DNA of 64,000 nucleotides from Patescibacteria group bacterium. Lineage in GTDB: Bacteria; Patescibacteriota; Saccharimonadia; Saccharimonadales; 2-12-FULL-41-12. Below are positions 448 through 46,492 of this stretch, piece by piece. Each line of letters opens with the position of its first letter. Within the stretch, counting starts at the first letter, position 1. Made by a program: the position numbers and the translations under genes. The notes under the pieces are model-generated. The model was not told the origin of the DNA. It made no database searches and saw only the letters and a program-made list of their open reading frames with translations. Where the stretch lies: NCBI GenBank assembly GCA_038064875.1, contig JBBTSC010000001.1, positions 123,004-187,003 of the forward strand. Reading direction: 5' to 3'.

Positions 448-3303
448 TTATTTCTTTGAACGAAGTTTTTTCAGCGCTATCAAGACGATCACTGCAAGTA
501 TCGGAGCAGATATTGCTAGAGGTGTAGCTATTTTACTCAGGGCAAATATTAGCACAGCAGTTAAAATTAACCAGCCAATACCTGTTTTTCGTGATATCTT
601 GGCACGTAAGAATTCACTACCGAGGTAGTAATATGGGAACACGGTAATAACCAAGAACGTACTTGAGAGCAGTCCACCAATAAGCACGACGGCCAGTCCT
701 TCCCAGAACGGGCTGGTGATAGCAAGTGGGATCAATGAGAACACAGCTGTTAGACTTGTAGCAATAAGTGGCCTGAACCTCTCTGCGAGCGCCTCGTGGG
801 CTGCGTCTACAGGGTTCATCCCTGATTTTCTAGCTTGGTTAGCATAGTCTGTCAATAAAATACTGTTCTTAATACTGAGGCCAATCAGAGCAAAGAGTCC
901 AAGCATAGCAAAGAAGCTAAATGCATTGTCAGTGATAAATAGTCCAAGCGTGATCCCAAATAAGCTAAACGGAAGGGCTAAGAATATGAGAAGTGGTTGG
1001 AGCATACTCTTGAATTGGAAGGCCAAGAATACATAGATCGCAAGAAGTAATATTGGGAATGCTAGAGCAAGTGTCTTGAAGCTATCTTGGTTCTCATCTT
1101 CTTGTCCGAAGTTGAAGCTCAAAGCATCTTTACCTACCCCGTAGCTTGCGACTTTGTCTTTAGGGAAGTTCTTTTCGACCGATTGTTGAGCCAAGGTTAC
1201 TAGGGTTGTGGTATCGTCGTCTACGAATGTTGCGGTAACTTCTATGTACTGTTTGTTATTCTCTCTGTTGAATATGCTAGAGTTAGACACTTCGACTGAT
1301 TTTAATTTTGCACTTGAACCGTCAATTCTCTTCAACTCGGTATTTTTGAGTTTATTTGAGATATCTTTAGCTAGTTGTATAGCACCGTCACGGTTTTCAC
1401 TAGAATCTATTCTTGCAGAAAAAGCTGCTGCTGGTGGTCCAGCGTCTACTTGACTCGCAGTTATTTTTGCCCCTTCAAAATTCTCAAATACATTATTCAA
1501 ATTATCTACAATAGCTGGGGCACGGATCTCTCGTTCAGTATATTTAGTGATATCTACGTAAGCGATAGCACTGTCAACAGTCCCCTGCCCGTAGTATGCA
1601 GTTTGTATAAAATTAGAGCCGATAGAATTACCAAGTATTTGGTTGGCTTTGTCGGTCGTATCCTCAGCTTGTTCTATTGTGGTATCAGGTGCAAATTTTA
1701 GACTGACCATGAGCTGGTTGGAGTCTTTGCTTGGTGGGAAAATATTGAATGTAACTTTTTGCATTAGGTAGCCACTTGTCCCAATAAATCCAAAACCAAT
1801 TATGAGCGCAACTATACCAACTCCGAAGAGCTTTTTGGTTGAACCTTTTGCCCACAGCATAGGAGCAGAGATAAATCTGGCAATAGAGGCTTCAAATCCT
1901 GCTGAGAATTCTTTCACGTTCTTCTCGCCAAGTTGTTTTTTGCCAAGAAGTATAAATTTCGCAAAGAACGGAATAAAAATGAGGGCAACAAGGAGGCTGA
2001 CAATAAGCGCAGAGATGATAGTTATTGGTATTGCTCGGATAAAGCTACCTAGTATTCCGCTTACAAAAAGCAGAGGTGCAAAACTAAGTGCTGCTGTCGC
2101 AGTGGCAGCGATCATGGCGCGACTAATCTTCTTTGTTGCTACAGACACTACTTCGCGGGCGTCTTTTCTCTTTTTGCGTTGGGCATCAATCGCTTCAACC
2201 ATAATGATCGTGTCATCAACGATCAACGAAAGTCCCAGAATAAGGGCAAACAGCGTGATTGTATTTAGGGTGTTGCCCGTGATCAATAGTATGGCATTGA
2301 CGATTGCAATGACAGTGACCATAGCGATGACCGTGATCAAGGACGCACGTATAGCTATCACTATTGAGCCTACGATCAGCACAGCCAAAAGACCTTCAAG
2401 AAGTGATTTTTGGAGTTCGCTAACCTGGTCGTTGATTTGTGAGGCAAAGCTGGCGCTGACAACCGCATCATAGTCAGAGAATTTTGAATCGGCATTTAAT
2501 TTGTTGAGCGCTTCTTGGACTTGTTTGTCTAGCTCAAGGTTATCAGCACCTTTCTTGGCGATAACTCCAATGCTAATTGAATTATGAAAAGCATTTTTCC
2601 CATCTTCTCTTTTGCCAAATCGATCAAAGTTCTTTTGAGTGGTTTGGGACTCACCTGTTAAAGGATTCGTAGCTGTCTCGAACGGGTCAATAATAGAGAC
2701 GTTCTCTACTAGGCTTAAGTTCTGAGATTGTATAAATGATGCAGCTTCTTTAGCTTTTGAAGCTAGTTCGGCTGTCGGTGTATCGTTGTCGCCATAGAAC
2801 GCAATAACCATATTATCGCCACGTGGAGTGAAGCCAAATTTGTAAGCTTCTATCTTGGTCTGAGCATTTTCTGGGAGGATCTTTTTATCAGCAATCTCTT
2901 GTCGGAGATTTGTGCTTTTTTCTTCAGCATTCGTCCCTTCTTCGTAAGAGATAACAACTGTGTAAAAATTATCAAAACTTTGTGCTTGTACGAGCTTCAC
3001 ACCCTCTTGTTTTAGTAAGAATTCGCTAAGAGGCTTGGATACTTCGTTGTCTACTTTCTGTGCATCATTGACCAGATAGGTACCTTGCGCAAATGCAAAT
3101 GGAGTCTGGATGCTCGGGAAACCTTCTCGTTTCAAAAATGTCGTATAACTGAGTGCGCCAAAGAGGAGCAGTGCTACCCAAATAATTGCTGTGAATCTGG
3201 TTCTGTCAAAAAAGAATAAGCTTAGCTTTTGTGATTTTGTATTACTTTCTTTTTGGATAGTCTTTTTTCTCTTAAATTTTGAAAATACGCCTTTTATCAT
3301 CAA
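448..3303 (-). CDS. RND-superfamily (AcrB-like) efflux permease
   Basis: 951 aa with multi-TM plus two large loop domains. RND motifs LSLIVDDTIIMVEAI and NSILLTDYAN. SD-like GGGAGA upstream. Confidence 0.8.
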   Translation of the reverse strand: MMIKGVFSKFKRKKTIQKESNTKSQKLSLFFFDRTRFTAIIWVALLLFGALSYTTFLKREGFPSIQTPFAFAQGTYLVNDAQKVDNEVSKPLSEFLLKQEGVKLVQAQSFDNFYTVVISYEEGTNAEEKSTNLRQEIADKKILPENAQTKIEAYKFGFTPRGDNMVIAFYGDNDTPTAELASKAKEAASFIQSQNLSLVENVSIIDPFETATNPLTGESQTTQKNFDRFGKREDGKNAFHNSISIGVIAKKGADNLELDKQVQEALNKLNADSKFSDYDAVVSASFASQINDQVSELQKSLLEGLLAVLIVGSIVIAIRASLITVIAMVTVIAIVNAILLITGNTLNTITLFALILGLSLIVDDTIIMVEAIDAQRKKRKDAREVVSVATKKISRAMIAATATAALSFAPLLFVSGILGSFIRAIPITIISALIVSLLVALIFIPFFAKFILLGKKQLGEKNVKEFSAGFEASIARFISAPMLWAKGSTKKLFGVGIVALIIGFGFIGTSGYLMQKVTFNIFPPSKDSNQLMVSLKFAPDTTIEQAEDTTDKANQILGNSIGSNFIQTAYYGQGTVDSAIAYVDITKYTEREIRAPAIVDNLNNVFENFEGAKITASQVDAGPPAAAFSARIDSSENRDGAIQLAKDISNKLKNTELKRIDGSSAKLKSVEVSNSSIFNRENNKQYIEVTATFVDDDTTTLVTLAQQSVEKNFPKDKVASYGVGKDALSFNFGQEDENQDSFKTLALAFPILLLAIYVFLAFQFKSMLQPLLIFLALPFSLFGITLGLFITDNAFSFFAMLGLFALIGLSIKNSILLTDYANQARKSGMNPVDAAHEALAERFRPLIATSLTAVFSLIPLAITSPFWEGLAVVLIGGLLSSTFLVITVFPYYYLGSEFLRAKISRKTGIGWLILTAVLIFALSKIATPLAISAPILAVIVLIALKKLRSKK

Positions 3304-15843: not shown

Positions 15844-18396
15844 TTAGCGCAGAGATATCGTGGTGTCATGTTCCAGTAGCCCAGAATCAGGTTTTTTGGC
15901 TGTTTTAGGCTTTGGTTTTTCTGCTACTTTAGATTCAGGTTGAGCTTGTTTAGTGGTAGGTATGTCTGGGGATGCTTTTTTCTTTTTGCTTCGTGTACGT
16001 TTGCGCTTTTTCTTTACAGGCGTGTCCTCAGGAGCTTTGGCTTGCTCAGGTTGCGTAACTGGGCTTTCTTCCTTTTGACTTTGCAGAGACTGAGATGGCC
16101 CTTTAACAGTGGGTTTTACGGCTGAGCCGGAAATATTGTACCGGTCATGTATGTAGTTCTCAACTTCTTGCAGTGACATTGAATAGTTTGCTCGACTGCT
16201 TGCAATAATTTGCTCCGAACTATCTTGGCCAGGCTCAGGTAAGTCGGAAGTTGTTGCAGAAAATGCTTGAACCTTCTCCCCTGCTATGGTCATACTGATT
16301 ACAAAATGCCGGTTGTGCATATGCACCAAATCATGCTCAACAAATTTTGGCTCAAAATATTTTAGCATTCCCCGCGCATCATCAGCACTTGTCCTGAAAG
16401 ATACTATTGACCCTACGTTGCCAAATACCGCATCTTTAACACTTTGCATCATCTGTGCTGTGTATTGATTGGCAACAGTTAGATTGAGGGCATACTTACG
16501 TGCCTCTGAGAGAATTGTGGCAAAAGAATCAGTCGCAAAGTTTTGGAATTCGTCAACATACAGGTAGAAAGGTTCACGTTGTTCTGTTGGGATATTGGCT
16601 CTGCTCATAGCGGCCATCTGAACTTTTGTCACCATCAGAGCTCCTAGAAGCGAAGCGTTGTCTTCGCCAATTAAGCCCCTGGATAGATTAACGATCAATA
16701 TCTTCTTTTGATCCATGATTTCGCGAATATTAAAACTACCCTTTGGCTGGCCAATTATGTTACGAACGAGCGGGTTAGCAGTAAAAGCACCGACTTTATT
16801 AAGTACTGGGGCTACAGCTTCTGCTGCAAATTTATCATTCCAGCTGGTGAATTCAACAGTCCAGAAGTTTTTAACGACTGGGTCACTGACATATTCAAGG
16901 ACTTCAGCTCGGAATTTCTTGTCAGTTAAGATTTTAGTTATATCAAGCATAGTTGCATCTGGGTAATCGAGCAAAGCCAAAATGCTATAGCGCAGTATGT
17001 ATTCTAGTCGTGGTCCCCATGAGTCGAACATCCTTTTCAAAACTCCTATGAGTTCTGAGCAAGTATGACTTTTGAGCTTAGGGTCTATCACTTCCATCGG
17101 GTTAAAAGCTATTGGATACATTGCATCCGCTGGGTTGAAATATATAACATCTTTTATGCGAGATTCGGGGATACGTTTGAGAATATTCAGTGCGTAATCG
17201 CCATGTGGGTCAATCACGGCAAAACCATAGTCGTGGTCAATATCTGCAATAGTGAGGAGTTCTAACAGCCCTGATTTACCAGTTCCGGTTTGTCCAATAA
17301 TATACATATGTCTACCGCGGTCGGTTCTGGGTATCCCAAATGATGTTTTATGCCCCCGGAAATTGGTCTGAGCAATCCCACTAACATTTTCGTCAATTTT
17401 TACTGGTAGGTTCGCAGGTGGTTCTGCTGTGGTTGCGTTTGCCCATAGGATATTAGGTGTCTCGACATTTGTGTGTGGCAAGTGGTATAGACTAGCAAGC
17501 TCTTCGATATTCAGCGTCATCGGCTTGTTGGCGTTATTACGATTTTGATAATTATAGATGTCTTCAGCTTTCTGGCTGATTTTCTTTACATCAAAACCGT
17601 TGAGATATGTGGAGTTAAATTGCTTGAAACTTGCAATGATAGACTGCAGCCGCATCCTACTGTTGTCTCCAGTATTTGCGGTGGATCCGTAGACTATTCT
17701 GACGGTTGCTTGATAGCCGAGTTTGTGGCTCTTTTCTTCCGCCGCTGAGGCTCGAGCTGATTCATGTTCTGCAAGTTTTGTAGCTCCTCCGTCTTTCTGT
17801 TCAGGTGGTTTAGCGAGTGCGCTGATAAGACCAGAATAACTGCTTGAGCTACCTCCTCTGATGCCCTGAGCGTAGCGTTCACTTTTTTTGTACCATCCGC
17901 TTTTGGCGGGCTGTACAATAAGTTGGATCCACGCACTTTCCCCTTCACCGAACTGAGCTAAAGATGCTGTAATAGAAGCCAGCGGGTCAACTTCAAAGCT
18001 TGGAAATGTTTTTATTGGCAAAGGATCTGGAGCAATTAGCTTGAGCTCACACGAGGCGTACGTATCTCCAAGTGCCTCTGCTTTTGCGTAATCTTCTATC
18101 TCAGATATATGAACATTAGGATATTGGGCATAGATTTGGTCTTCAACATATTGTTTTAGTCTATCCGGAACCCAAACATAAAAGCCAATCCTCCCATCCA
18201 CCACAGCGATCTCAAAGCTTATTTTGTCATGCACTGTGGTAGAAAAGATCCCGGTGCTCGCTTTTGTGAGCAGTCCATGGATAGCAGCCATCATTTGTTC
18301 AGCTGCGAGCTCTTTCTTCTCATTATTGCGCGGAACTTGAAGCAATAATACAATTGTTTTCTCGAGTGAATCCGCTTGTTTTTTGTTGAATAACAT
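15844..18396 (-). CDS. TraD/VirD4/FtsK-HerA-like P-loop ATPase (type IV coupling-protein-like) with Lys/Pro-rich tail
   Basis: Walker A IIGQTGTGKSGLL, Walker B LYVDEFQNF, no obvious N-terminal TM, C-terminal KKKRKRTRSKKKK tract. Confidence 0.6.
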   Translation of the reverse strand: MLFNKKQADSLEKTIVLLLQVPRNNEKKELAAEQMMAAIHGLLTKASTGIFSTTVHDKISFEIAVVDGRIGFYVWVPDRLKQYVEDQIYAQYPNVHISEIEDYAKAEALGDTYASCELKLIAPDPLPIKTFPSFEVDPLASITASLAQFGEGESAWIQLIVQPAKSGWYKKSERYAQGIRGGSSSSYSGLISALAKPPEQKDGGATKLAEHESARASAAEEKSHKLGYQATVRIVYGSTANTGDNSRMRLQSIIASFKQFNSTYLNGFDVKKISQKAEDIYNYQNRNNANKPMTLNIEELASLYHLPHTNVETPNILWANATTAEPPANLPVKIDENVSGIAQTNFRGHKTSFGIPRTDRGRHMYIIGQTGTGKSGLLELLTIADIDHDYGFAVIDPHGDYALNILKRIPESRIKDVIYFNPADAMYPIAFNPMEVIDPKLKSHTCSELIGVLKRMFDSWGPRLEYILRYSILALLDYPDATMLDITKILTDKKFRAEVLEYVSDPVVKNFWTVEFTSWNDKFAAEAVAPVLNKVGAFTANPLVRNIIGQPKGSFNIREIMDQKKILIVNLSRGLIGEDNASLLGALMVTKVQMAAMSRANIPTEQREPFYLYVDEFQNFATDSFATILSEARKYALNLTVANQYTAQMMQSVKDAVFGNVGSIVSFRTSADDARGMLKYFEPKFVEHDLVHMHNRHFVISMTIAGEKVQAFSATTSDLPEPGQDSSEQIIASSRANYSMSLQEVENYIHDRYNISGSAVKPTVKGPSQSLQSQKEESPVTQPEQAKAPEDTPVKKKRKRTRSKKKKASPDIPTTKQAQPESKVAEKPKPKTAKKPDSGLLEHDTTISLR

Positions 18397-18467: not shown

Positions 18468-19469
18468 ATGGAAAAATATACAAAAATAAAGTATAATAAC
18501 TCTCAAATGAGATATGAACGTGAGCGCTCTATAGTAGCGGAAGCTCAAATGTTACATCAAAATCCACAAAGACTAGGAGAAATAGCCTGTGAGACTGATA
18601 TTGATTACGAGAATGATAACCCAGAGTTACGTGCCCTAAGACGTGAATTTTATATTCTACTGAGTGTTGGCATATCTGATGCAGTCGATACATTTATAGG
18701 TCAGAGTCAAAGCATAGAGCCATTAGGTTTGATACGCCCTTTTAGTCTGGCTAATGCTGTCATCACAGAGCCAGACCTTACGGTAAAACCTCGAGATATC
18801 ACGGAGGCATACATTCCTTATGCGGTTTTGGCTGATAATATGAGATCAACAGTTGACGGGTTAGCTATATTGCGGGAGTCAAAACATACACAGGTGAATC
18901 CGCATATGACAAAAATTTTAGAGCGGATTGATGAGATCGGGCCAAGATTGTCTCAATCTTTATCGCCCGATGACTCTCGCTTAGGTGTTAGAAATTTTGC
19001 CGAGTCACAGATTCGAGTAGGTATGATTACTTTTACGGACAAAGTGCCACAGTTTTTGCGCGCTATAGAGTTAGGCGCTATAAAACAACATGGTCCAGGG
19101 GTTACATTAGAGGAAATATCAAAGATAGCTAATGCGAGTAATCTTCACCAAAGGGTCGCAGCCATGGGTATAGATGAATTTATGCTTTGGAGTATTCGGT
19201 TCCCTAGCACAGGAAATTTTGCTTTTAGCTTTGATGATTACTTTATTATTCATACGGGTGCAGATGGGGAGGCAAGAGTTAGCTTTGCCAGAGAACTACC
19301 ACCTGAGCCAGAGGGTATTGTGTCTTCTAATGAGATTACCAAAAGATTTAATCACAAAATAGGGTGCCCGGCTATGATCAGATTGTTAGATGATTCTTCA
19401 CTTCAAGAAATGTGGGACTGGTCTACTGCCATTGCCGAGCAGACTGTTTGGCAAAGATCTGATAAATAA
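18468..19469 (+). CDS. hypothetical protein (333 aa, no recognised domain)
   Basis: Long ORF with protein-like composition, divergent from the ATPase gene. Confidence 0.6.
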   Translation: MEKYTKIKYNNSQMRYERERSIVAEAQMLHQNPQRLGEIACETDIDYENDNPELRALRREFYILLSVGISDAVDTFIGQSQSIEPLGLIRPFSLANAVITEPDLTVKPRDITEAYIPYAVLADNMRSTVDGLAILRESKHTQVNPHMTKILERIDEIGPRLSQSLSPDDSRLGVRNFAESQIRVGMITFTDKVPQFLRAIELGAIKQHGPGVTLEEISKIANASNLHQRVAAMGIDEFMLWSIRFPSTGNFAFSFDDYFIIHTGADGEARVSFARELPPEPEGIVSSNEITKRFNHKIGCPAMIRLLDDSSLQEMWDWSTAIAEQTVWQRSDK

Positions 19470-19763
19470 GATAGTTGGCACTCCGTTTCGTTCTTTTGAA
19501 CTCGTCAGTGTAAATACACATTTACAGACGGAGAGACAAGTAGAGAGAATAGGAAAAGAGAGGGGTGGTGTAATGACACGTGCGTGTTCGCTCGGTCAAA
19601 TGACGTGTCAGCACTTCTCCGCGCTATTGTGTGGCAGACACACATACAGAAAAGTTCACCAAACCTCAATCTCTTCGCTACTCTTGCTCTACCTGCCCCT
19701 CCGTGTAACTGAGTTGTGGCACTATCTCTATCGGGAGACAGCTTAAAAACTGCTACAACGGCG

Positions 19764-19803
19764 GTCCTCGGTTCCTGGTCGAAATTTCAGAGGGCTCTTT
19801 TTT
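19764..19803 (+). terminator. possible intrinsic terminator
   Basis: GTCCTC (19764-69) pairs with GAGGGC (19790-95) including one G-U, followed by TCTTTTTT. The loop is long (20 nt). Confidence 0.3.
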
Positions 19804-20031
19804 CACTGCACACATGCGTAGAACGACTACCTCCCCAAATAGAGATTTGCACGGACAGGAGCACAAGGGGATGTGCATTTTGATCTCGGTCAGGAGATCA
19901 TTTTACGAGTTGATTATTGTGTTGGCTCACTTTCTGTTGATTATGCGATTATTCGCCTTTGGGATTTTCGGACACGACTTTGTGCTTACTCTTCCCTACT
20001 TCTGACGAAGCATCAATCACCCAGCTCGATT

Positions 20032-20082
20032 GATTAAGACGGATAGTGAGCACTATATTAATGCGCACTATCCGTCTTAATC
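20032..20082. repeat. perfect 17-bp inverted repeat hairpin
   Basis: GATTAAGACGGATAGTG (20032-48) and CACTATCCGTCTTAATC (20066-82), with a 17-nt loop. Confidence 0.8.
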
Positions 20083-20207
20083 TTCTCAATCTACTTGTCA
20101 AAGATCATCCGAATCAAGCTCCCAAAAGAGCGACTCCAGGACACCTCAGAATATACTCTGAAACACCGTATGTGTCAAATTGTCAGATGATCAACCTCGT
20201 AGCTTTT

Positions 20208-20678
20208 TTAGATAATTCTCTCAATAAAATTATCATGAATATCAGACTTTATTTGTTGATAATCTGCGTACTGCAAGCAAGTAGGCGTGATTTTTAGAAC
20301 CATATAGTCTCCCCCATTGACTTTGACAATTGGTGGCACCCATTTGTTGTCGTTTTTTGGTTTGACGTGGGCTAATTTTTTCATAACTACACTAACTATA
20401 TCTTTTGCTGGGACTTTGCTGACTTTTCCAGCTACCTGAACTGTCTTTTGGGTTTCGTTATCAGATATCACAAGAGATACATTATGGTTATTAGCTATAT
20501 TTTGATACTTATGCGTATTTACCCTAGTTATAAAAAAGAAATTTAAATCTTCGTCTGTTGCAAAGTAGATTGATGACCCCCAGGGTTTGCCATCTTCTGA
20601 AACAGTAGACAAGACTCCATGAGAATTATTTTTCAGAAACTCTTTTGCTTTGTCTATTGAGCTCTCTTTACTGTCCAT
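20208..20678 (-). CDS. pyridoxamine 5'-phosphate oxidase-family (general stress protein 26-like) protein
   Basis: HGVLSTVSEDGKPWGSSIYFATDEDLNFFFIT pattern. TGcTAAAAT lies 6 nt from the ATG. Confidence 0.65.
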   Translation of the reverse strand: MDSKESSIDKAKEFLKNNSHGVLSTVSEDGKPWGSSIYFATDEDLNFFFITRVNTHKYQNIANNHNVSLVISDNETQKTVQVAGKVSKVPAKDIVSVVMKKLAHVKPKNDNKWVPPIVKVNGGDYMVLKITPTCLQYADYQQIKSDIHDNFIERII

Positions 20679-20750: not shown

Positions 20751-20920
20751 GTGAAAGTGTTATTGCTAACAACTTTCTACCGTCCGCAGATGGTAACCAC
20801 CTCAACGATGGTGTTTGAATTTTAACCTGAGATTCTTCAATTTTCAAATGATTTGCTTAATAGTTGTGAATAACATGTGTATAAGTGTTCCTGCAGTGCT
20901 GAAATCTAGAAGTGGTATGT
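20712..20920 (-). ncRNA. candidate ~200-nt small RNA
   Basis: Minus-strand TTTACA (20950-55), 17 nt, TATTAT (20927-32). Intrinsic terminator AAAAAGAAG/CTTCTTTTT (20721-50) plus T-run. No ORF longer than 11 codons. Confidence 0.35.
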
Positions 20921-20926
20921 TAAGGA

Positions 20927-20955
20927 ATAATAAAAGTATAGCTAAAATTTGTAAA
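20927..20955 (-). promoter_or_regulatory. sigma70-like promoter TTTACA-17-TATTAT
   Basis: Read directly on the minus strand, 85 nt downstream of the upstream gene stop. Confidence 0.4.
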
Positions 20956-21039
20956 AACAATCCTGTTTTTGTGGCAGATTAGCAAAAATTTACCGCTTCA
21001 AATCAAGTTATTCATAATATAAATCGCTAGAGTAACACA

Positions 21040-21804
21040 TTATTTCATAACTAGCATAGATGCTATTGGATAGTGGTCAGTCAATTGATCTTTAAGCATA
21101 CCACTCGCCAGAAGACCTATTTCCGAAAATAAGAGATGGTCGTAGCGCCTGCCCCTAGGCGTTGTAGCTAAATGTTGTTTTAGTTCACTGAATCCTGCTT
21201 CAAATAATTCAGGGAATGATTCTCGTAGAGATGACATATCAATATTAAAATCTCCTTGGAGGACGGAGTGACCTTTTGCTCTTTCTAGGATTTTTGCTTG
21301 CATATCATCAAAGATGGCTCTGGCTTCATCGCTTGCAATATCTACACCAAGTCTTCTAAATGGTAGAGCGTGTAGGGTCTGTGCTACCACGGCTCTTTTA
21401 CCCACGCCTAGAGTAACCGAAGTTAACCCTTTATCGTGAGAATATTCTTCTCCAATCTGGAAGTTGGGGTTTATGAATAGTTGAAACGAATGCCCATGAA
21501 TAGGAAAACGAGAAATTACACCTTGCCCTAACATAGAACTATCATCAAGGTGCGAAGGCGCGTAGGTGTCATTTACCCAATGGCCATAACCCAGCGCTTC
21601 AGCAATCATGCGTGTTTGGTTGTCACCGTTCTTTTCGTGGGTTTCTTGGAGAGTGATAAGGTGCGGGTCTCTTTGTTCAAGTGTTGCAATGATATTGTCT
21701 AATCCATCCTCGCAATATGAGCCTGAACTTAGAGGATCAGCCTCAGGGTGACGAATCATACCGCCACCAATATTCCATTGGACTGATTTAATTACTCCGG
21801 ACAT
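21040..21804 (-). CDS. endonuclease/exonuclease/phosphatase (EEP) family protein
   Basis: ITLQETH, LQGDFNID and TDHYPI motifs. ATG 21804 preferred over the TTG at 21840. Confidence 0.7.
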   Translation of the reverse strand: MSGVIKSVQWNIGGGMIRHPEADPLSSGSYCEDGLDNIIATLEQRDPHLITLQETHEKNGDNQTRMIAEALGYGHWVNDTYAPSHLDDSSMLGQGVISRFPIHGHSFQLFINPNFQIGEEYSHDKGLTSVTLGVGKRAVVAQTLHALPFRRLGVDIASDEARAIFDDMQAKILERAKGHSVLQGDFNIDMSSLRESFPELFEAGFSELKQHLATTPRGRRYDHLLFSEIGLLASGMLKDQLTDHYPIASMLVMK

Positions 21805-21977
21805 GTTATAAACAATACCATTAAACTTACGTTTTGTCAAAATGCTGACTAAGACTAGTCATTTAGATATTTGCCAACTAAGTCCAATTAAAAAGGAGAA
21901 AGAAGGTAGAAAACTCAACTTAATCTAATTATAAGCGGTGACATGCTAGATTACCATAAGGGTATTCGGTTCTAGAA

Positions 21978-22454
21978 TCAGAGGAGTAAGTGACGTCCTT
22001 CTATTTCGAGAGAATTTAAGCTAGCCCTGATCGTAGCATCAATTGTTTGATTTACTGTTAGATCTAGCTCTGTTGCAAGCACACAAATTCTAGTTGCCCT
22101 TTTCCATTCAGGAGTTATTGCGATAGCTTCGTAAAGTTCTGGCTGAGGGATTAGAAGTTTCGATCGCTTGCCATGTGCTTTTGGAGCTAGAACTTCTCTG
22201 TTAATAAATCCAGCTCTATCTAGACTGTTAGCTGCTCTGGTGGCGACAACAAAACTTGTATCCAATAGATTTTCTAGATCTTTAGTGACAAGTGGGTTTT
22301 CATGGTTAATCGCGATAAAACCCGCAACATATGCAACTGCTTGATTTCCAACAGAACTTACGGCTCTACCCATGTGGATTTCATCAAACATAGACTGAAT
22401 ATGCCTTTTTCTTGATGGCTCTAAAGGGCCATCTATAAACCTATCCATAATCAT
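21978..22454 (-). CDS. hypothetical protein, possible winged-helix DNA-binding fold
   Basis: 158 aa; the segment LVTKDLENLLDTSFVVATRAANSLDRAGFINRE resembles MarR-like wHTH. TATTAT lies 7 nt from the ATG. Confidence 0.45.
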   Translation of the reverse strand: MIMDRFIDGPLEPSRKRHIQSMFDEIHMGRAVSSVGNQAVAYVAGFIAINHENPLVTKDLENLLDTSFVVATRAANSLDRAGFINREVLAPKAHGKRSKLLIPQPELYEAIAITPEWKRATRICVLATELDLTVNQTIDATIRASLNSLEIEGRHLLL

Positions 22455-22627
22455 AAAACATATAATACCATAAAGTAGGCAAATTTCTACCTACTCTATG
22501 TTGCTTTTGCGCGGTGTATGCAACCAATCCAGCAACATGGTCGGCGCATGCCTGATCGCATTTTTGAAAGGCCAACTCCTATTAATAAACCACCCTTGGT
22601 ATTTTAAGAGACTATTTTTTAAGAATA

Positions 22628-23275
22628 TTACAGTATGTCTACAAGGGTGTTTGTGCTGTTGTTGCTGTTGTCAGTGTTTACTGTTGTGTTGGTAGTTGTA
22701 CTAGTGTTGGTAGTTGGGCTTACGACGCTAGTGTTGCCGTTGTTGTTATTGTTGTCCCATGTCTGGACATTTGTATTGGACGTATTGTTAGTAGTGCTTG
22801 TGTTTGTTGTTGTGGTCGTTGTAGGACTGAATACGTCGGTGTTGCCGTTATCCCAGTTCCATGATTGGCTGTTTGAAAGAGCAAAGCTGTTACCACTGTA
22901 TCTACTGTCTGTGACTGTGCTTGTAGAGGTAGTACTGGTGTTATTAGTGTTTGACTGGTTATATGTTAGATAATATGGAAGAGTACCATAACTTTTAATA
23001 CCTGCAGACAAAAGAGTGTCGACTACAGCTGGGCTACCGTTAGAAACTTCTGGATTAGGAGCTGTGCATAGTCCGCCTACGGTCGCTGAATTAGTTTGAG
23101 GAGCAGAGTTGCTAGTTACTGGGTTGTTGACTGTGTCTATAGCGTTAACTTTTGAGTTAACAAGCGTGTTTGTAATGTACGCTATAAATCCACATACTAT
23201 TGCCATCGAAATCACAAAAGCTATGATTAATTGATTAATATTAATTGAAATGTCCTGCTGTTGTTTTGCAGCCAT
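22628..23275 (-). CDS. membrane-anchored Thr/Asn-rich repetitive surface protein
   Basis: N-terminal TM, then repeats of W.N..GNT.V.SPTT..NTSTT. Start at ATG 23275 behind GAGGAGGG. Confidence 0.6.
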   Translation of the reverse strand: MAAKQQQDISININQLIIAFVISMAIVCGFIAYITNTLVNSKVNAIDTVNNPVTSNSAPQTNSATVGGLCTAPNPEVSNGSPAVVDTLLSAGIKSYGTLPYYLTYNQSNTNNTSTTSTSTVTDSRYSGNSFALSNSQSWNWDNGNTDVFSPTTTTTTNTSTTNNTSNTNVQTWDNNNNNGNTSVVSPTTNTSTTTNTTVNTDNSNNSTNTLVDIL

Positions 23276-23498
23276 TTGACCCTCCTCTAAGTTATTTATA
23301 AATCTCATTACCCCAAAGATCCCACAAAATCTTTAATACCTCTTAGCATAGCGTTCGCCCAAATTATTTTCAAGATAAAGAGTTTTTTTGCGCCATCGTC
23401 GGCTATTTCCATTAGAGTTATTATGCATATTTTTTGTCGCAAAAAATACTATGTTGTAGATATGTTTAATTTGATTCAAATATCGATTGCTATTTAGA

Positions 23499-43255: not shown

Positions 43256-46200
43256 TTAGTCCTTTGAGAGGTCTTGCTCAAAAGCCCGTATACCTTTTAA
43301 GTTCTTAGTATACTCAGGCTGTTCGTCCAAAAACTTAAGGTTTTTTATATCGCGGTACGCACCAATTATTAGTTTTTCTAGCTCTTTTGCTTCATCTATT
43401 TCAAAATCTACCGAGAGCTCAGCATAATCACTGTTATCAACTAATGATTCAACAAATACTAGCTTACCAGTGTTTATTTGATAATCTTTATACTTAGGAT
43501 GATTTTGGAGGAGTAGGTAGTAAAAGTACAGTTGCTGTCGATATTTATGTAGCTTGATCGCATCAAAATTATCAACGTTGGGACCTGGCCATTTGTTATA
43601 TCCTTTTCCGGTTTTGTAATCAATAATAATGATGGTTTTGTTTTTTTCATCAACATCAATCCTATCTAAAATACCTTTTATCCTAGTATTGTTGCCTATA
43701 GTAACTCCAACTCCAGAAAAATCAAGTTCGCTTACTTGCTCGATTCCCTTTTTAAAGACAATAGAGTGAGGGGCTAGTAGTTTTTCGATAAGGATAGAGA
43801 TCCTCTGCTTTAGTGTTCGCTTTTCTGCGTCTGTAAGGAATAGTCTATCAATATTTTTATGCGATTTAATCTCAATTTCTTTGATCGATGGGAGTTTGCT
43901 AGTTTTACTAAAACTTTGATGTAAGTCATTGATTATGCTGTGTGCTAGTGATCCAAAGCTAGCATCGATACTATAGCTTTTAGGGAATTTGAGAATCTGG
44001 TTCAATAAAAACTGATTATGATCAGAATTAACCACATCTACATAAGAATTTAGGTGGGTTGGACTCAGCTCATAGTCTTCTAGTGTTTTCTGCAGGTAGT
44101 CTTTTAGGTTTGAGTCTTTGGTGATAAATGAAGATTGCGACTCAATCTCAGCTATCGCAAGTTTTCGTTTATTGATCGCTACGGTTTCAACTTGATCAAG
44201 AGATTTCTCACCGATAGCAGAATGTGCCCATTCGTTAAGCAGATTGTCTCTTCCATTTTCATCGGTCTTTGACATAGTTAGTATCAATTCTTCCCTGGCC
44301 CTAGTAGAAGCGACATAGAAAAGCCTATGCTTTTCTGACCATGAGTTATAGTCAGGCAGAATATACTTGTGATGCTCTGGTAGAACTATCTTGCTTGTCT
44401 TTGATTTTTCCTCTACCCATACATATTGTGAAGCATGGATGATAAATACTACGTCAAATTCTTTCCCCTTGGCAGAGTGGGCTGTAATCAAGTTAACACT
44501 ATCGTTCGCTGTTATAACAGGATGATTGTTCGCTAGTTGAATATTTGCAGAAGCTCGTATACTGATCTGAGTCAGTAGATCCTGTATGCTTGAGCCCCCG
44601 CTAACAACCATATTGCGAATATTATTTCTAAAGATGATAAGGCTGGTAAGGATTTGAAGTTCAAAATTATCGTCGTTAAAATAATATTCTTTAAAACTAC
44701 TCATGCCAACCTCTTTTGAGTCGACTATTAGGTCAAGTATCTCCTCAAGCGTGTTATTTCTTGCCCTTTTTGCTAGATGTAGCAACCAGTTGATGGTAGG
44801 TTTCAGCTCAGGGCTTTTTAGGGCAAAATTTATCCAAGAAATTTTGTTTTTGTAACAATGCAGGCTGGCGTCATATAGTACGGCAGGATCTACGCCTACC
44901 CAGTCGTAGCTCAAGATCTCGCTCAGGTAGATGTCGCTATTTGATGTCTTGTCGTTTACGCTGATGATAAATCTGAGTATTGTTATTATTTCTTTTATGG
45001 CGTGGTTTTCTAGCACATTTTGTCTGCGCTCGTAGTTAATATCAATCTCACTATATTGGAGAAATTTTGCTACTTTTTCGAGGTGTTTATGCTTTGGGGC
45101 AATAATAGCGATATCTTGTAGTTTTTTACCTGATTTTTGAAATTGTTTTATTGTATTTACAATCTCTAAGTATTCGTTGGCTTCGTGCTCTGTTTTTACT
45201 AGTTTGGTGATACTTTTTGATTTTTTTTGTGAAGTGAGTTGTTTAGACAAAGTTTCGAAGGAATTTTCTAATCGGTCAGTGTTCTGCACTATGACAGACC
45301 TGGCAAAATCAAGAATCTTGTCTGTAGATCTGTAGTTTTCGGTTAGGTTAACAACCAGAACATCAGTGTATTTATTGATGAAGTCTGAGAAATTTGAATA
45401 CTCCGCACCCTGAAAGCCGTATATTGCTTGATCGTCATCGCCAACAATTAAGATATTGGGTCTGTTTTCATTTGCAGGACTCTCCATGAGTGTCTGAAGC
45501 AGACTAACTTGCAGGGTGCTTGTGTCTTGAAATTCATCAACCATTGTGTAGTAGAAATTCTCCTGGATATTTGCCAGTAGACTAGGATTTTTCTGGAGAA
45601 CTAATATAACTTGGAGGATCATATCATCAAAATCGTAATATCCAAGATCACGAAGTTTGGTCTCGTACATTTCCCACACGTGGGCCAACGACAAGAGCTT
45701 TTTAAGAGACATAGAATATTTTGTCTGAATTTGTAGATCATCATTTTTTGCTGTCCAGAGATTTTTCCACTTAGTCAGTGGCTTTGTGTCTACTACATCA
45801 CTGGATTTTGATAAGTCAAGCGCTTCATCGAGGCTATTTGTTAGTAGACCAAGAAAGGCATTTTTTTCCTTTAGTTGTGATAATTCGTCTAAAAGATTTT
45901 CAAAATTGCCTAAGCTGGATTTTGATATTCTACTGATACTGCCTAAATTGTCCAGGATTAATGTATCTACTTTCTTTAAGATACTAGAGTCGTCAGAGAT
46001 ACTCTTTTTTAGCGTCTGAGGTGAGAATCCTCCTTTTTTATAGAGACTTATTGAGTCGATAATATCGCTTGTGTATATGAACTCATCCTGGACTTTCTTA
46101 GACAAACTATCATCGAAGTTTAGTGTCTCTAAAATACTGTTTACTAGCTGGTATTTTGTTAATTCATCGATATTTTGTTTTAAAAGATACTCATCAAAAT

Positions 46201-46492
46201 AATAATTATAGTTGCTAATAATCCAGCCAGCAAAACTATGAAAGGTGTGAATTGCCACCTTGTATCCATCACTACCAATCAGCTCTACTAACTTATTTTT
46301 TAGGGTTTGTCTTGCAGAATCAGTAAATGTTAGACAAAGTATATTCTCAGCTGAGATATCCGTGCTCTCAAGTATATGTTTTATTCGGTACGTTAGAAGT
46401 GTTGTCTTACCTGTTCCAGGCCCGGCTAGTACAAGTACTGGCCCCTCAATAGCATGAATTGCCTCAAGCTGTTTTGAATTTAAATTCTCCAT
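43256..46492 (-). CDS. UvrD/PcrA-type superfamily 1 helicase fused to C-terminal PD-(D/E)XK (RecB/AddB-like) nuclease
   Basis: LVLAGPGTGKT, MVDEFQDTS, C-terminal ILDRIDVD...IIIIDYKTGK and QLYFYYLL. Confidence 0.8.
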   Translation of the reverse strand: MENLNSKQLEAIHAIEGPVLVLAGPGTGKTTLLTYRIKHILESTDISAENILCLTFTDSARQTLKNKLVELIGSDGYKVAIHTFHSFAGWIISNYNYYFDEYLLKQNIDELTKYQLVNSILETLNFDDSLSKKVQDEFIYTSDIIDSISLYKKGGFSPQTLKKSISDDSSILKKVDTLILDNLGSISRISKSSLGNFENLLDELSQLKEKNAFLGLLTNSLDEALDLSKSSDVVDTKPLTKWKNLWTAKNDDLQIQTKYSMSLKKLLSLAHVWEMYETKLRDLGYYDFDDMILQVILVLQKNPSLLANIQENFYYTMVDEFQDTSTLQVSLLQTLMESPANENRPNILIVGDDDQAIYGFQGAEYSNFSDFINKYTDVLVVNLTENYRSTDKILDFARSVIVQNTDRLENSFETLSKQLTSQKKSKSITKLVKTEHEANEYLEIVNTIKQFQKSGKKLQDIAIIAPKHKHLEKVAKFLQYSEIDINYERRQNVLENHAIKEIITILRFIISVNDKTSNSDIYLSEILSYDWVGVDPAVLYDASLHCYKNKISWINFALKSPELKPTINWLLHLAKRARNNTLEEILDLIVDSKEVGMSSFKEYYFNDDNFELQILTSLIIFRNNIRNMVVSGGSSIQDLLTQISIRASANIQLANNHPVITANDSVNLITAHSAKGKEFDVVFIIHASQYVWVEEKSKTSKIVLPEHHKYILPDYNSWSEKHRLFYVASTRAREELILTMSKTDENGRDNLLNEWAHSAIGEKSLDQVETVAINKRKLAIAEIESQSSFITKDSNLKDYLQKTLEDYELSPTHLNSYVDVVNSDHNQFLLNQILKFPKSYSIDASFGSLAHSIINDLHQSFSKTSKLPSIKEIEIKSHKNIDRLFLTDAEKRTLKQRISILIEKLLAPHSIVFKKGIEQVSELDFSGVGVTIGNNTRIKGILDRIDVDEKNKTIIIIDYKTGKGYNKWPGPNVDNFDAIKLHKYRQQLYFYYLLLQNHPKYKDYQINTGKLVFVESLVDNSDYAELSVDFEIDEAKELEKLIIGAYRDIKNLKFLDEQPEYTKNLKGIRAFEQDLSKD

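What the first reader, a model, noticed from the sequence alone, without database searches (positions are those of the whole stretch)
19470..20207. 0.74-kb ORF-free, GC-elevated, hairpin-dense spacer between convergent genes
Seen: no credible ORF on either strand. The three listed + ORFs lack a promoter or SD and have odd composition. 60-nt lines I hand-counted here gave 27-33 G+C, against 23-25 in three lines counted in another gene (43256..46492). Several strong local structures are present. One is CTC-GTC..TGTAAAT-ACAC-ATTTACA-GAC.GAG at 19501-19533. Another is an 8-bp stem TGACACGT/ACGTGTCA (19574-19610), which competes with the local palindrome ACACG-TG-CGTGT. A third is the perfect 17-bp hairpin at 20032-20082. 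A stem plus T-run lies at 19764-19803. Inference: one or more structured ncRNAs, or an unusually long structured 3' UTR of the 333-aa gene. I could not match it by eye to tmRNA, RNase P, SRP, 6S or common riboswitch cores.
Basis: seen in the sequence. Interest (0 to 1): 0.55.

Follow-up and report, generated by a model that had tools for sequence, protein, structure and literature searches.

The report
Hammerhead-ended structured RNA gene in Saccharibacteria
The "empty" spacer is a conserved gene for a folded RNA of about 620 nt on the opposite (minus) strand, with its own promoter and a self-cleaving hammerhead ribozyme at its 3' end; the ribozyme type is well known, but the RNA matches no described family.

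Summary
The spacer has no conserved ORF. Its GC (45.4%) is in the top 4% of the window. Its minus strand is the most stably folding 738-nt stretch of the 64 kb.

Its first "hairpin" (19501-19533) is stem I plus the core of a canonical type III hammerhead ribozyme on the minus strand (19534..19480; Rfam 45.5 bits, E 9e-7). Cleavage falls between C19527 and U19526.

A sigma-70-like promoter (TTGACA-17-TATATT, 20178..20150) lies about 615 nt upstream on the same strand. Conservation starts at the predicted transcription start and stops at the ribozyme's last base.

The unit is present in six contigs from six samples of one Saccharimonadales clade (four clearly distinct sequences). I found it nowhere else.

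It is not the 3' UTR of the 333-aa gene.

Best reading: a promoter-driven, structured ncRNA of about 618 nt whose 3' end is made by hammerhead self-cleavage instead of a terminator. After cleavage, the new 3' end can tuck into a 177-nt hairpin. What the RNA body does is unknown.

The ribozyme is a new member of a known class. The RNA it finishes is new.

The parts
20150..20178 (-). Sigma-70-type promoter: -35 TTGACA (20178-20173), 17-nt spacer, -10 TATATT (20155-20150). The predicted start is about 20144 (+/-3).
   Evidence: scores it 11 of 12 matches. In all six copies both hexamers are invariant. The spacer sequence is only about 58% identical and its length stays at 17-18 nt.
19527..20144 (-). 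Predicted mature ncRNA (the 5' cleavage product, about 618 nt), running from the predicted start to the hammerhead cleavage site.
   Evidence: High conservation begins at GUGUCC just after the -10 box and ends at the ribozyme. No ORF is conserved. Fold z is -7.6. The consensus structure has 97.4% of cells paired and 11 pairs with changes on both sides.
19794..20131 (-). 5' domain: a multi-branch fold closed by the helix GCUCUUUU (20131-20124) / AAAAGAGC (19801-19794).
   Evidence: RNAalifold helix 4, 8 pairs, 6 of them invariant.
20032..20082 (-).
   Evidence: Helices 7 and 8. One pair changes C-G to U-A in L002. The apex occurs as two different alleles that each still form a hairpin (my reading of the alignment).
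19699..19757 (-). Most conserved block (98.9% mean pairwise identity among four copies). It contains the hairpin 19756-19705 with a CCGAUA loop.
   Evidence: Helices 20 and 21 never vary, so they have no covariation support and their high sequence conservation is unexplained.
19528..19704 (-). Long 177-nt hairpin with a purine-rich 5' strand and a pyrimidine-rich 3' strand, rich in G-U pairs. Its last six nucleotides, CUCCGU, are also the 5' strand of hammerhead stem III.
   Evidence: Helix 22 has 40 pairs. Helices 23, 24 and 26 carry 7 of the 11 pairs with changes on both sides. Alternative pairing is shown.
19480..19534 (-). Type III hammerhead ribozyme.
- Stem III: CUCCGU / ACGGAG.
- Cleavage triplet: GUC, cut between C19527 and U19526.
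- Stem I: UGUAAAU-GUGU-AUUUACA.
- Core: CUGACGA.
- Stem II: GUUC-AAAA-GAAC.
- 3' core: GAAA.
   Evidence: Rfam RF00008 scores 45.5 bits (gathering score 48.5), E 9.4e-7 for the whole window. The isolated 59-mer folds into the three-way junction as its minimum-energy structure. It is 98% identical across orthologues and conservation stops at its 3' edge.
18468..19469 (+). Context only: a convergent 333-aa orphan gene whose stop codon lies 10 nt from the ribozyme's 3' edge.
   Evidence: no Pfam match; very small family. It was present wherever the DNA beyond the RNA could be read: the window and four contigs. The L087 contig ends too soon to tell.
20208..20678 (-). Context only: an upstream PNPOx-family gene on the same strand. 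Its stop codon lies 29 nt before the -35 box, and no terminator was found between them.

Best explanation
The spacer is a single transcription unit on the minus strand.

A sigma-70-type promoter (20178..20150) starts an RNA at about 20144. The RNA folds into three parts: a roughly 340-nt multi-branch 5' domain, a nearly invariant 52-nt hairpin, and a 177-nt hairpin. A type III hammerhead follows directly and cuts the nascent RNA after C19527. This releases an ncRNA of about 618 nt with a 2',3'-cyclic phosphate end.

No intrinsic terminator follows, so the ribozyme, not a terminator, defines the 3' end. It also separates the RNA from whatever polymerase goes on to transcribe antisense to the convergent 333-aa gene.

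The six nucleotides 5' of the cut (CUCCGU) can pair in two ways. One partner is the ribozyme's 3' strand ACGGAG, which gives the active fold. The other is an upstream ACGGAG at the base of the long hairpin. I infer that cleavage happens during or soon after transcription, and that the new 3' end then tucks into the hairpin with only the final C unpaired. That would protect it from 3' exonucleases and disfavour re-ligation.

Shown here: the promoter and ribozyme motifs, their conservation, the strand, the lack of coding potential, the fold and the alternative pairings.

Inferred: transcription, cleavage in vivo, the protective tuck, and any function of the RNA body. My guess is that the body acts as a protein-binding or regulatory RNA specific to this lineage.
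For: - **Hammerhead.** Searches find RF00008 at 45.5 bits, E 9.4e-7, the only non-tRNA hit in the window with E below 0.9. Every core nucleotide is present and the triplet is GUC. My own strict type III descriptor finds exactly one site in the 64 kb. The motif folds correctly on its own.
- **Promoter.** It matches 11 of 12 consensus positions. The hexamers are invariant while the spacer is 58% identical, with length kept at 17-18 nt.
- **Unit boundaries.** Blocks inside the RNA are 93-99% identical. Sequence just before the start and just after the ribozyme diverges.
- **Constraint.** The spacer is as conserved (83-91% nt) as the neighbouring 850-aa gene, whose protein is 93-95% identical.
- **Non-coding.** One search finds no conserved ORF. 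One search finds no translated similarity to the genes at this position in relatives.
- **Strand and structure.** Searches give z -7.6 against -4.2. One search gives -194.9 against -160.5 kcal/mol. One search gives 97.4% of cells paired and 11 pairs with changes on both sides (0 of 500 shuffles reach this). ranks it the lowest energy in the window.
- **No minus-strand terminator.** None lies in or just after the unit.
- **Two-state 3' end.** The minimum-energy fold is -237.6 and the hammerhead-active fold is -230.9 kcal/mol. In the 5' product, all but the final C of the 3' end is paired.
- **Similar layout elsewhere.** In another Saccharimonadales genome (L027), two type III hammerheads each follow a hairpin without a U-tract at the end of a gene and precede the next promoter-like site. 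For one of them, the product's 3' end again pairs upstream.
Against: - There are no expression or end-mapping data.
- The Rfam score is 3 bits below the curated gathering score.
- The most stable fold hides stem III of the ribozyme (6.7 kcal/mol below the active fold), so activity depends on co-transcriptional folding.
- Only six copies exist, from one clade, and four are clearly distinct. Covariation is therefore thin and concentrated in a few helices. The most conserved hairpin has none.
- No terminator separates the PNPOx gene from the promoter, so some or all of this RNA could be made as that mRNA's 3' UTR.
- The hammerhead loops show no obvious tertiary contact.
- The L027 hammerheads were found with a descriptor that requires pairing, so their covariation with this one is circular.
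- The function of the RNA body is unknown.
Confidence: 0.6

Rival explanations
1. The region is the long structured 3' UTR of the PNPOx-family mRNA (20678..20208, minus strand). The hammerhead trims that mRNA and stops the transcript running antisense into the 333-aa gene. The internal promoter would be secondary or inactive. This partly overlaps the best explanation, since both transcripts could exist.
For: The gene is on the same strand. Only 29 nt separate its stop codon from the -35 box, and no terminator lies between them. In L027 the hammerheads sit at the ends of protein-coding units. Perreault et al. 2011 propose mRNA processing for clustered bacterial hammerheads.
Against: The promoter hexamers are invariant across a diverged spacer. 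Conservation begins at the predicted start rather than at the stop codon. Relatives with PNPOx at 66-73% identity lack the region altogether.
Confidence: 0.2
2. It is a decayed remnant of a typical bacterial or prophage hammerhead cassette. In those, ribozymes flank a small non-conserved ORF. Here the ORF and a second ribozyme would have been lost, and the RNA body would have no function.
For: Reviews and Perreault 2011 describe bacterial hammerheads that flank small non-conserved ORFs. L027 shows exactly that arrangement. The block of ncRNA, 333-aa gene and 850-aa gene occupies a variable position compared with relatives.
Against: Blocks 93-99% identical sit beside a promoter spacer that is 58% identical, which indicates purifying selection rather than decay. 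There are no frame remnants and no translated similarity. No second ribozyme appears even with filters off. I saw no integrase or phage genes among the neighbours I annotated.
Confidence: 0.08
3. It is a viroid-like or retrozyme-like unit that yields a circular RNA.
For: It has a type III hammerhead, a size of 600-700 nt, and a long hairpin that hides the ribozyme in the most stable fold. These recall retrozymes and Avsunviroidae (comparison from my own knowledge).
Against: There is only one ribozyme and no flanking direct repeats or second copy. A promoter-initiated 5' triphosphate end cannot be joined to a 2',3'-cyclic phosphate end. The locus is single-copy and syntenic in all six contigs.
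Confidence: 0.04
4. One reading: a structured 3' UTR of the 333-aa gene on the plus strand.
For: The region lies directly downstream of that gene. The plus strand also folds better than shuffles (z -4.2). Weak terminator-like sites exist at 19861-19876 and near 19790.
Against: The hammerhead and promoter read only on the minus strand. The consensus fold is 34 kcal/mol worse on the plus strand. Wobble changes that preserve pairing on the minus strand become C·A mismatches on the plus strand. A homologue of the 333-aa gene elsewhere has no such spacer.
Confidence: 0.04

Closest known systems
Type III hammerhead ribozymes in bacterial genomes (Rfam RF00008; Perreault et al. 2011, PMC3088659; review PMC6155905)
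   Same: The three-way junction, the invariant core (CUGANGA ... GAAA), the GUC cleavage triplet, and an intergenic location in a bacterial chromosome.
   Different: Known bacterial examples are mostly linked to prophages or integrases and often flank small ORFs in clusters. This one is single. It is not next to phage genes among the neighbours I annotated. It ends a conserved non-coding RNA of about 618 nt that has its own promoter. I found no paper linking hammerheads with Saccharibacteria or the candidate phyla radiation.
Clustered hammerheads flanking single genes (for example Agrobacterium tumefaciens ardA, Clostridium scindens; PMC3088659)
   Same: The proposed role is cutting a longer transcript into units. 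L027 in this study has this layout.
   Different: In the window there is one ribozyme, no ORF, and the promoter supplies the 5' end.
Retrozymes and Avsunviroidae (type III hammerhead RNAs of 250-1000 nt; comparison from my own knowledge)
   Same: The ribozyme type, the size, and a stable alternative fold that sequesters the ribozyme strand.
   Different: Those need two cleavage sites, from repeats or rolling-circle transcripts, and they circularise. Here there is one site, a single-copy chromosomal gene and a bacterial promoter.
Large structured bacterial ncRNAs (OLE, GOLLD, ROOL, HEARO; Rfam)
   Same: The size class (more than 500 nt), multi-domain folds and lineage-restricted distribution.
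   Different: There is no sequence or structure match to any of them. To my knowledge none is finished by a cis ribozyme.
Intrinsic (Rho-independent) terminators
   Same: Functional analogy: a stable hairpin at the RNA's 3' end defines and protects that end.
   Different: There is no U-tract. The end is made by RNA self-cleavage, leaves a cyclic phosphate, and polymerase is not released by the motif itself.

Membership tests
Hammerhead ribozyme, type III (RF00008) | Three helices around a junction, with helix III open-ended and helices I and II closed by loops | tested here: met
   The cmscan alignment covers model positions 1-54 of 54. The minimum-energy fold of the isolated 59-mer is this junction.
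Hammerhead ribozyme, type III (RF00008) | Invariant core: C3 U4 G5 A6 N7 G8 A9, G12 A13 A14, the A15.1-U16.1 pair, the G10.1-C11.1 pair, and position 17 not G | tested here: met
   The sequence reads CUGACGA-G...C-GAAA with a GUC triplet. These positions are identical in all six orthologues.
Hammerhead ribozyme, type III (RF00008) | Score at or above Rfam's curated gathering score (48.5 bits) | tested here: not met
   The score is 45.5 bits, 3 bits short. The E-value is 9.4e-7 for the 64-kb window against 4227 families. This is a curation cut-off, not a biochemical feature.
Hammerhead ribozyme, type III (RF00008) | Helices kept through compensatory changes | tested here: inconclusive
   The orthologues are nearly identical here. 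Twelve of 17 pairs covary with the two L027 ribozymes, but those were selected by a descriptor that requires pairing.
Hammerhead ribozyme, type III (RF00008) | Tertiary contact between loops or bulges of helices I and II that gives fast cleavage at physiological Mg2+ | not testable with these tools
   The loops are GUGU and AAAA (GAAA in L002). No obvious Watson-Crick loop-loop pairing is visible.
Hammerhead ribozyme, type III (RF00008) | Site-specific self-cleavage | not testable with these tools
   This needs in vitro transcription.
Intrinsic terminator | GC-rich hairpin followed directly by a U-tract on the transcribed strand | tested here: not met
   No minus-strand site lies in 19470-20207 or just downstream. 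The long hairpin is followed by the ribozyme, not by U's.
Retrozyme / viroid-like circular RNA | Two ribozyme copies or direct repeats that bound the unit | tested here: not met
   One hammerhead only, even with filters off. No other Rfam ribozyme appears at E up to 10. There are no repeats or second copy in the window.
Known housekeeping or large ncRNAs (RNase P, tmRNA, SRP, 6S, OLE, GOLLD, ROOL, HEARO, riboswitches) | Match to the family covariance model | tested here: not met
   Searches give no hit. ARAGORN finds no tmRNA.
Protein-coding gene or pseudogene | A conserved reading frame, or translated similarity to genes at the same position in relatives | tested here: not met
   (best tblastn E-value 0.43).

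The most novel reading that the evidence does not exclude
This is the founding example of a ribozyme-terminated large ncRNA. In this reading it is a lineage-specific, multi-domain functional RNA of episymbiotic Saccharibacteria whose maturation is gated by a four-segment conformational switch (CCGU/ACGG and CUCCGU/ACGGAG). It would show that, in at least some candidate-phyla-radiation bacteria, hammerheads serve as a terminator-independent way to make RNA 3' ends. That would give bacterial hammerheads a concrete cellular role. The RNA might work together with the co-distributed orphan 333-aa protein.
Probability: 0.25. Interest if true: 0.7.

Novelty: new variant of a known kind. Interest (0 to 1): 0.5.

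Why it matters
The biological role of bacterial hammerhead ribozymes is still described as an open question (PMC6155905, PMC3088659).

This locus offers a clean, testable case away from the usual prophage setting. It has a promoter, a conserved structured RNA and a single ribozyme placed where a terminator would be. The ribozyme's substrate strand can switch into a protective hairpin.

It also adds an undescribed RNA of about 620 nt to Saccharibacteria. Their reduced genomes are poorly annotated for non-coding genes. I found no report of hammerheads in this group.

The element is confined to one small clade and its function is unknown, so the impact is moderate.

Tried and rejected
- **Rfam.** I ran gathering and permissive thresholds on the window and the region. 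The only hits were the hammerhead, one tRNA and noise such as miRNA and lncRNA models.
- **tmRNA and tRNA.** ARAGORN found nothing in the spacer.
- **Other copies in the window.** There are none.
- **Pseudogene test.** tblastn against the 258-, 261-, 261- and 293-aa genes that follow PNPOx in relatives found no similarity.
- **Public collections.** Four patterns against viral contigs gave 0 hits. A 20-mer from the invariant block hit four soil or groundwater metagenome contigs. These share only 21 nt inside what looks like a transposase gene, so I treat them as chance matches. blastn against phage and plasmid collections found nothing.
- **Synteny search.** I fetched 80 GTDB loci around orthologues of the 850-aa gene, 34-74% identical. 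nhmmer found no homologue of the RNA. My hammerhead covariance model found nothing beyond its own training sequences in 1.15 Mb.
- **Nearest relatives.** The nearest outgroup locus, L108 (76%), lacks both the RNA and the ribozyme. PNPOx homologues at 66-73% identity are followed by a protein gene or by a flavodoxin gene instead.
- **Second ribozyme.** I searched the region with filters off and found none.
- **RNase P idea.** By eye, GGGGAGGUAGUCG and ACAGAAAGUGAGCC resemble conserved regions I and V of RNase P RNA. I rejected this because they occur in the wrong order, Rfam gives no hit, and the RNA is missing from related genera.
- **The 333-aa protein.** It has no match in Pfam, NCBIfam or PADLOC. 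The AlphaFold model was unusable (pLDDT 33.5), so I ran no fold search. A distant homologue's locus has no spacer.

Full report
**1. The observation**

The region 19470-20207 lies between a 333-aa gene on the plus strand (18468-19469) and a 156-aa PNPOx-family gene on the minus strand (20208-20678).

GC is 45.4% against 40.8% for the window. That places it in the top 3.6% of 738-nt windows.

The minus strand folds at -254.7 kcal/mol (z -7.6 against dinucleotide shuffles). The plus strand folds at -230.8 (z -4.2). I also folded 168 other 738-nt stretches tiled across the 64 kb. The minus strand of the spacer has the lowest energy of all, and its GC-corrected z is -4.2.

No ORF is conserved. Indels among orthologues include 1, 2, 4 and 5 nt. 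Variable sites show no 3-periodicity.

**2.

A permissive Rfam scan finds a type III hammerhead ribozyme on the minus strand at 19534..19480. It scores 45.5 bits against a gathering score of 48.5, with E 9.4e-7 for the whole window.

Every catalytic-core nucleotide is present:
- the cleavage site is CUCCGUC|U;
- stem I is UGUAAAU-GUGU-AUUUACA;
- the core is CUGACGA;
- stem II is GUUC-AAAA-GAAC;
- the 3' core is GAAA;
- stem III closes with ACGGAG.

Cleavage falls between C19527 and U19526.

My own strict type III descriptor finds exactly one site in the 64 kb. The isolated 59-mer adopts the three-way junction as its minimum-energy fold.

**3. A promoter and sharp unit boundaries**

The best promoter-like site in the region lies on the same strand, about 615 nt upstream. 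It reads TTGACA-17-TATATT at 20178..20150 and matches 11 of 12 positions.

Orthologous spacers were recovered from five other assemblies:
- L001 and L002, through the 333-aa protein;
- L087, through a PNPOx homologue;
- L106 and L107, through the 850-aa protein.

In all six copies both hexamers are invariant. The spacer between them is only about 58% identical and keeps a length of 17-18 nt. This is the pattern expected of a working promoter.

High conservation starts at GUGUCC just downstream of the -10 box and ends at the last base of the ribozyme. Beyond that the sequences diverge.

Inside the unit, several blocks are highly conserved: 97% in the first 68 columns, 99% in a 59-nt block at 19757-19699, 94% in the 3' strand of the long hairpin, and 98% in the ribozyme. 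Less conserved stretches of 70-77% lie between them.

Overall the spacer is as conserved (83-91% nt) as the neighbouring 850-aa gene, whose protein is 93-95% identical. The region is therefore under purifying selection as a non-coding unit of about 665 bp plus its promoter.

**4. Strand and structure**

The consensus fold of four distinct copies is -194.9 kcal/mol on the minus strand and -160.5 on the plus strand.

On the minus strand, 202 predicted pairs are 97.4% paired. Eleven pairs change on both sides, and none of 500 shuffles reach this. Sliding the partner columns drops pairing to 40-50%. The caveats are that there are only four sequences and that the structure was derived from the same alignment.

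The pairs with double changes sit mainly in the apical arms of the long hairpin (helices 23, 24 and 26) and in the 17-bp hairpin (helices 7 and 8). The apex of the 17-bp hairpin occurs as two different alleles that each still pair (my reading).

One-sided changes such as C-G to U-G at A4 columns 411/436 keep pairing only in the minus-strand RNA.

The architecture has four parts:
- a nearly invariant hairpin (19756-19705);
- the hammerhead.

**5. How the 3' end is probably made**

No minus-strand intrinsic terminator lies within or just after the unit. The hammerhead is therefore the only recognisable element that can define a 3' end.

The six nucleotides 5' of the cut (CUCCGU) can pair with the ribozyme's ACGGAG, forming stem III of the active fold. 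They can also pair with an identical ACGGAG at the base of the long hairpin. A matching CCGU at 19761-19758 can pair with whichever ACGG is left free.

The computed energies are -237.6 kcal/mol for the fold that hides stem III and -230.9 for the active fold. In the 5' cleavage product all but the final C of the 3' end is paired.

From this I infer co-transcriptional cleavage, followed by tucking of the new 2',3'-cyclic-phosphate end into the hairpin. That would protect the end and disfavour re-ligation.

A similar layout occurs in a different Saccharimonadales genome (L027). Two type III hammerheads each follow a hairpin without a U-tract at the end of a gene and precede the next promoter-like site. 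For one of them, the product's 3' end again pairs upstream.

Cleavage would also detach the ncRNA from any read-through transcript running antisense into the 333-aa gene, whose stop codon is 10 nt from the ribozyme. The fate of the 5'-OH downstream fragment, for example RNase J attack as reported for glmS products, rests on my own knowledge and was not tested.

**6. Distribution**

The organism belongs to Candidatus Saccharibacteria (Saccharimonadales), judging by the relatives of its 850-aa DUF8128/TrwB-like protein.

The RNA was found in six contigs from six samples. Four are clearly distinct sequences and two are nearly identical to the window. All share the same gene order: PNPOx, then the RNA, then the 318-333-aa gene on the opposite strand, then the 850-aa gene. 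L087 ends before the genes beyond the RNA.

The RNA is absent in the following places:
- 80 GTDB loci around 850-aa orthologues, none more than 74% identical;
- the 76% outgroup L108;
- the region next to PNPOx homologues at 66-73% identity, where a protein gene or a flavodoxin gene takes its place;
- viral contigs, phage records and plasmid records.

The one metagenome scan returned only chance 21-nt matches inside what looks like a transposase gene. The family therefore looks confined to roughly one genus. The search tools used here detect only close DNA relatives, so more distant homologues could have been missed.

**7. Comparison with known systems**

The ribozyme is a canonical type III hammerhead. 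It is a new member of that class, found in a phylum for which I could find no hammerhead report.

Known bacterial hammerheads number in the hundreds. They are mostly near integrases or prophages and often flank small non-conserved ORFs. Their function is described as unresolved.

The window's case differs in three ways. There is a single ribozyme. I saw no phage genes among the annotated neighbours. And it ends a conserved non-coding RNA that has its own promoter.

The unit is not retrozyme- or viroid-like, because it has one cleavage site, no repeats and a single chromosomal copy. The RNA body matches no Rfam family.

**8. Verdict**

The best-supported model is a structured ncRNA of about 618 nt finished by a hammerhead (confidence 0.6).

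The main rival is that the region is mostly the PNPOx mRNA's 3' UTR (0.2). The two are not mutually exclusive.

The function of the RNA body remains unknown. Its co-distribution with the orphan, recombining 333-aa gene is a lead and nothing more. Interest is moderate (0.5).

Noticed in passing
window 18468-19469 (+): The 333-aa orphan gene is mosaic. The window's allele is 95-96% identical (nt) to L001 but only 61-76% identical to L002. The flanking DNA shows the opposite pattern: 85-91% to L002 and 78-84% to L001. This suggests allele exchange. The family is very small, with about 10 clusters at 50% identity among 1.84 billion representatives.
   Followed up: partly
L027 2174-3018 (-), DATIIL010000001.1: Two type III hammerheads (3018..2961 and 2229..2174) flank a 156-aa lipoprotein-like ORF. 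Each follows a hairpin without a U-tract and precedes a promoter-like site. This is the classic "ribozymes flanking a small ORF" layout, here in a Saccharimonadales genome assembled from a metagenome.
   Followed up: partly
window ~20900-23490: A block with an EEP-family 266-aa gene, a 158-aa gene and a Thr/Asn-rich 226-aa gene is missing from the otherwise syntenic L001 and L002. It looks like a strain-specific insertion.
   Followed up: no
window 15844-18396 (-): The 850-aa DUF8128/TrwB-like ATPase matches the PADLOC model mad8 (E 1.4e-14). In most Saccharibacteria loci it follows genes of about 295 and 621 aa. In this clade it has moved next to the Metallophos gene, together with the RNA and the 333-aa gene.
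   Followed up: partly
window 20049-20065 (apex of the 17-bp hairpin): The hairpin apex occurs as two alleles. One is an AAATGAAT-containing type in L001 and L106. The other is in the window, L002, L087 and L107. The split does not follow the similarity of the rest of the RNA, which hints at recombination within the RNA gene.
   Followed up: no
L003-L006 (JGI soil and groundwater metagenome contigs): The 20-mer CCCGATAGAGATAGTGCCAC from the invariant block occurs exactly in what looks like a conserved transposase gene in four unrelated high-GC contigs. I treat this as a chance match and not as homology.
   Followed up: yes
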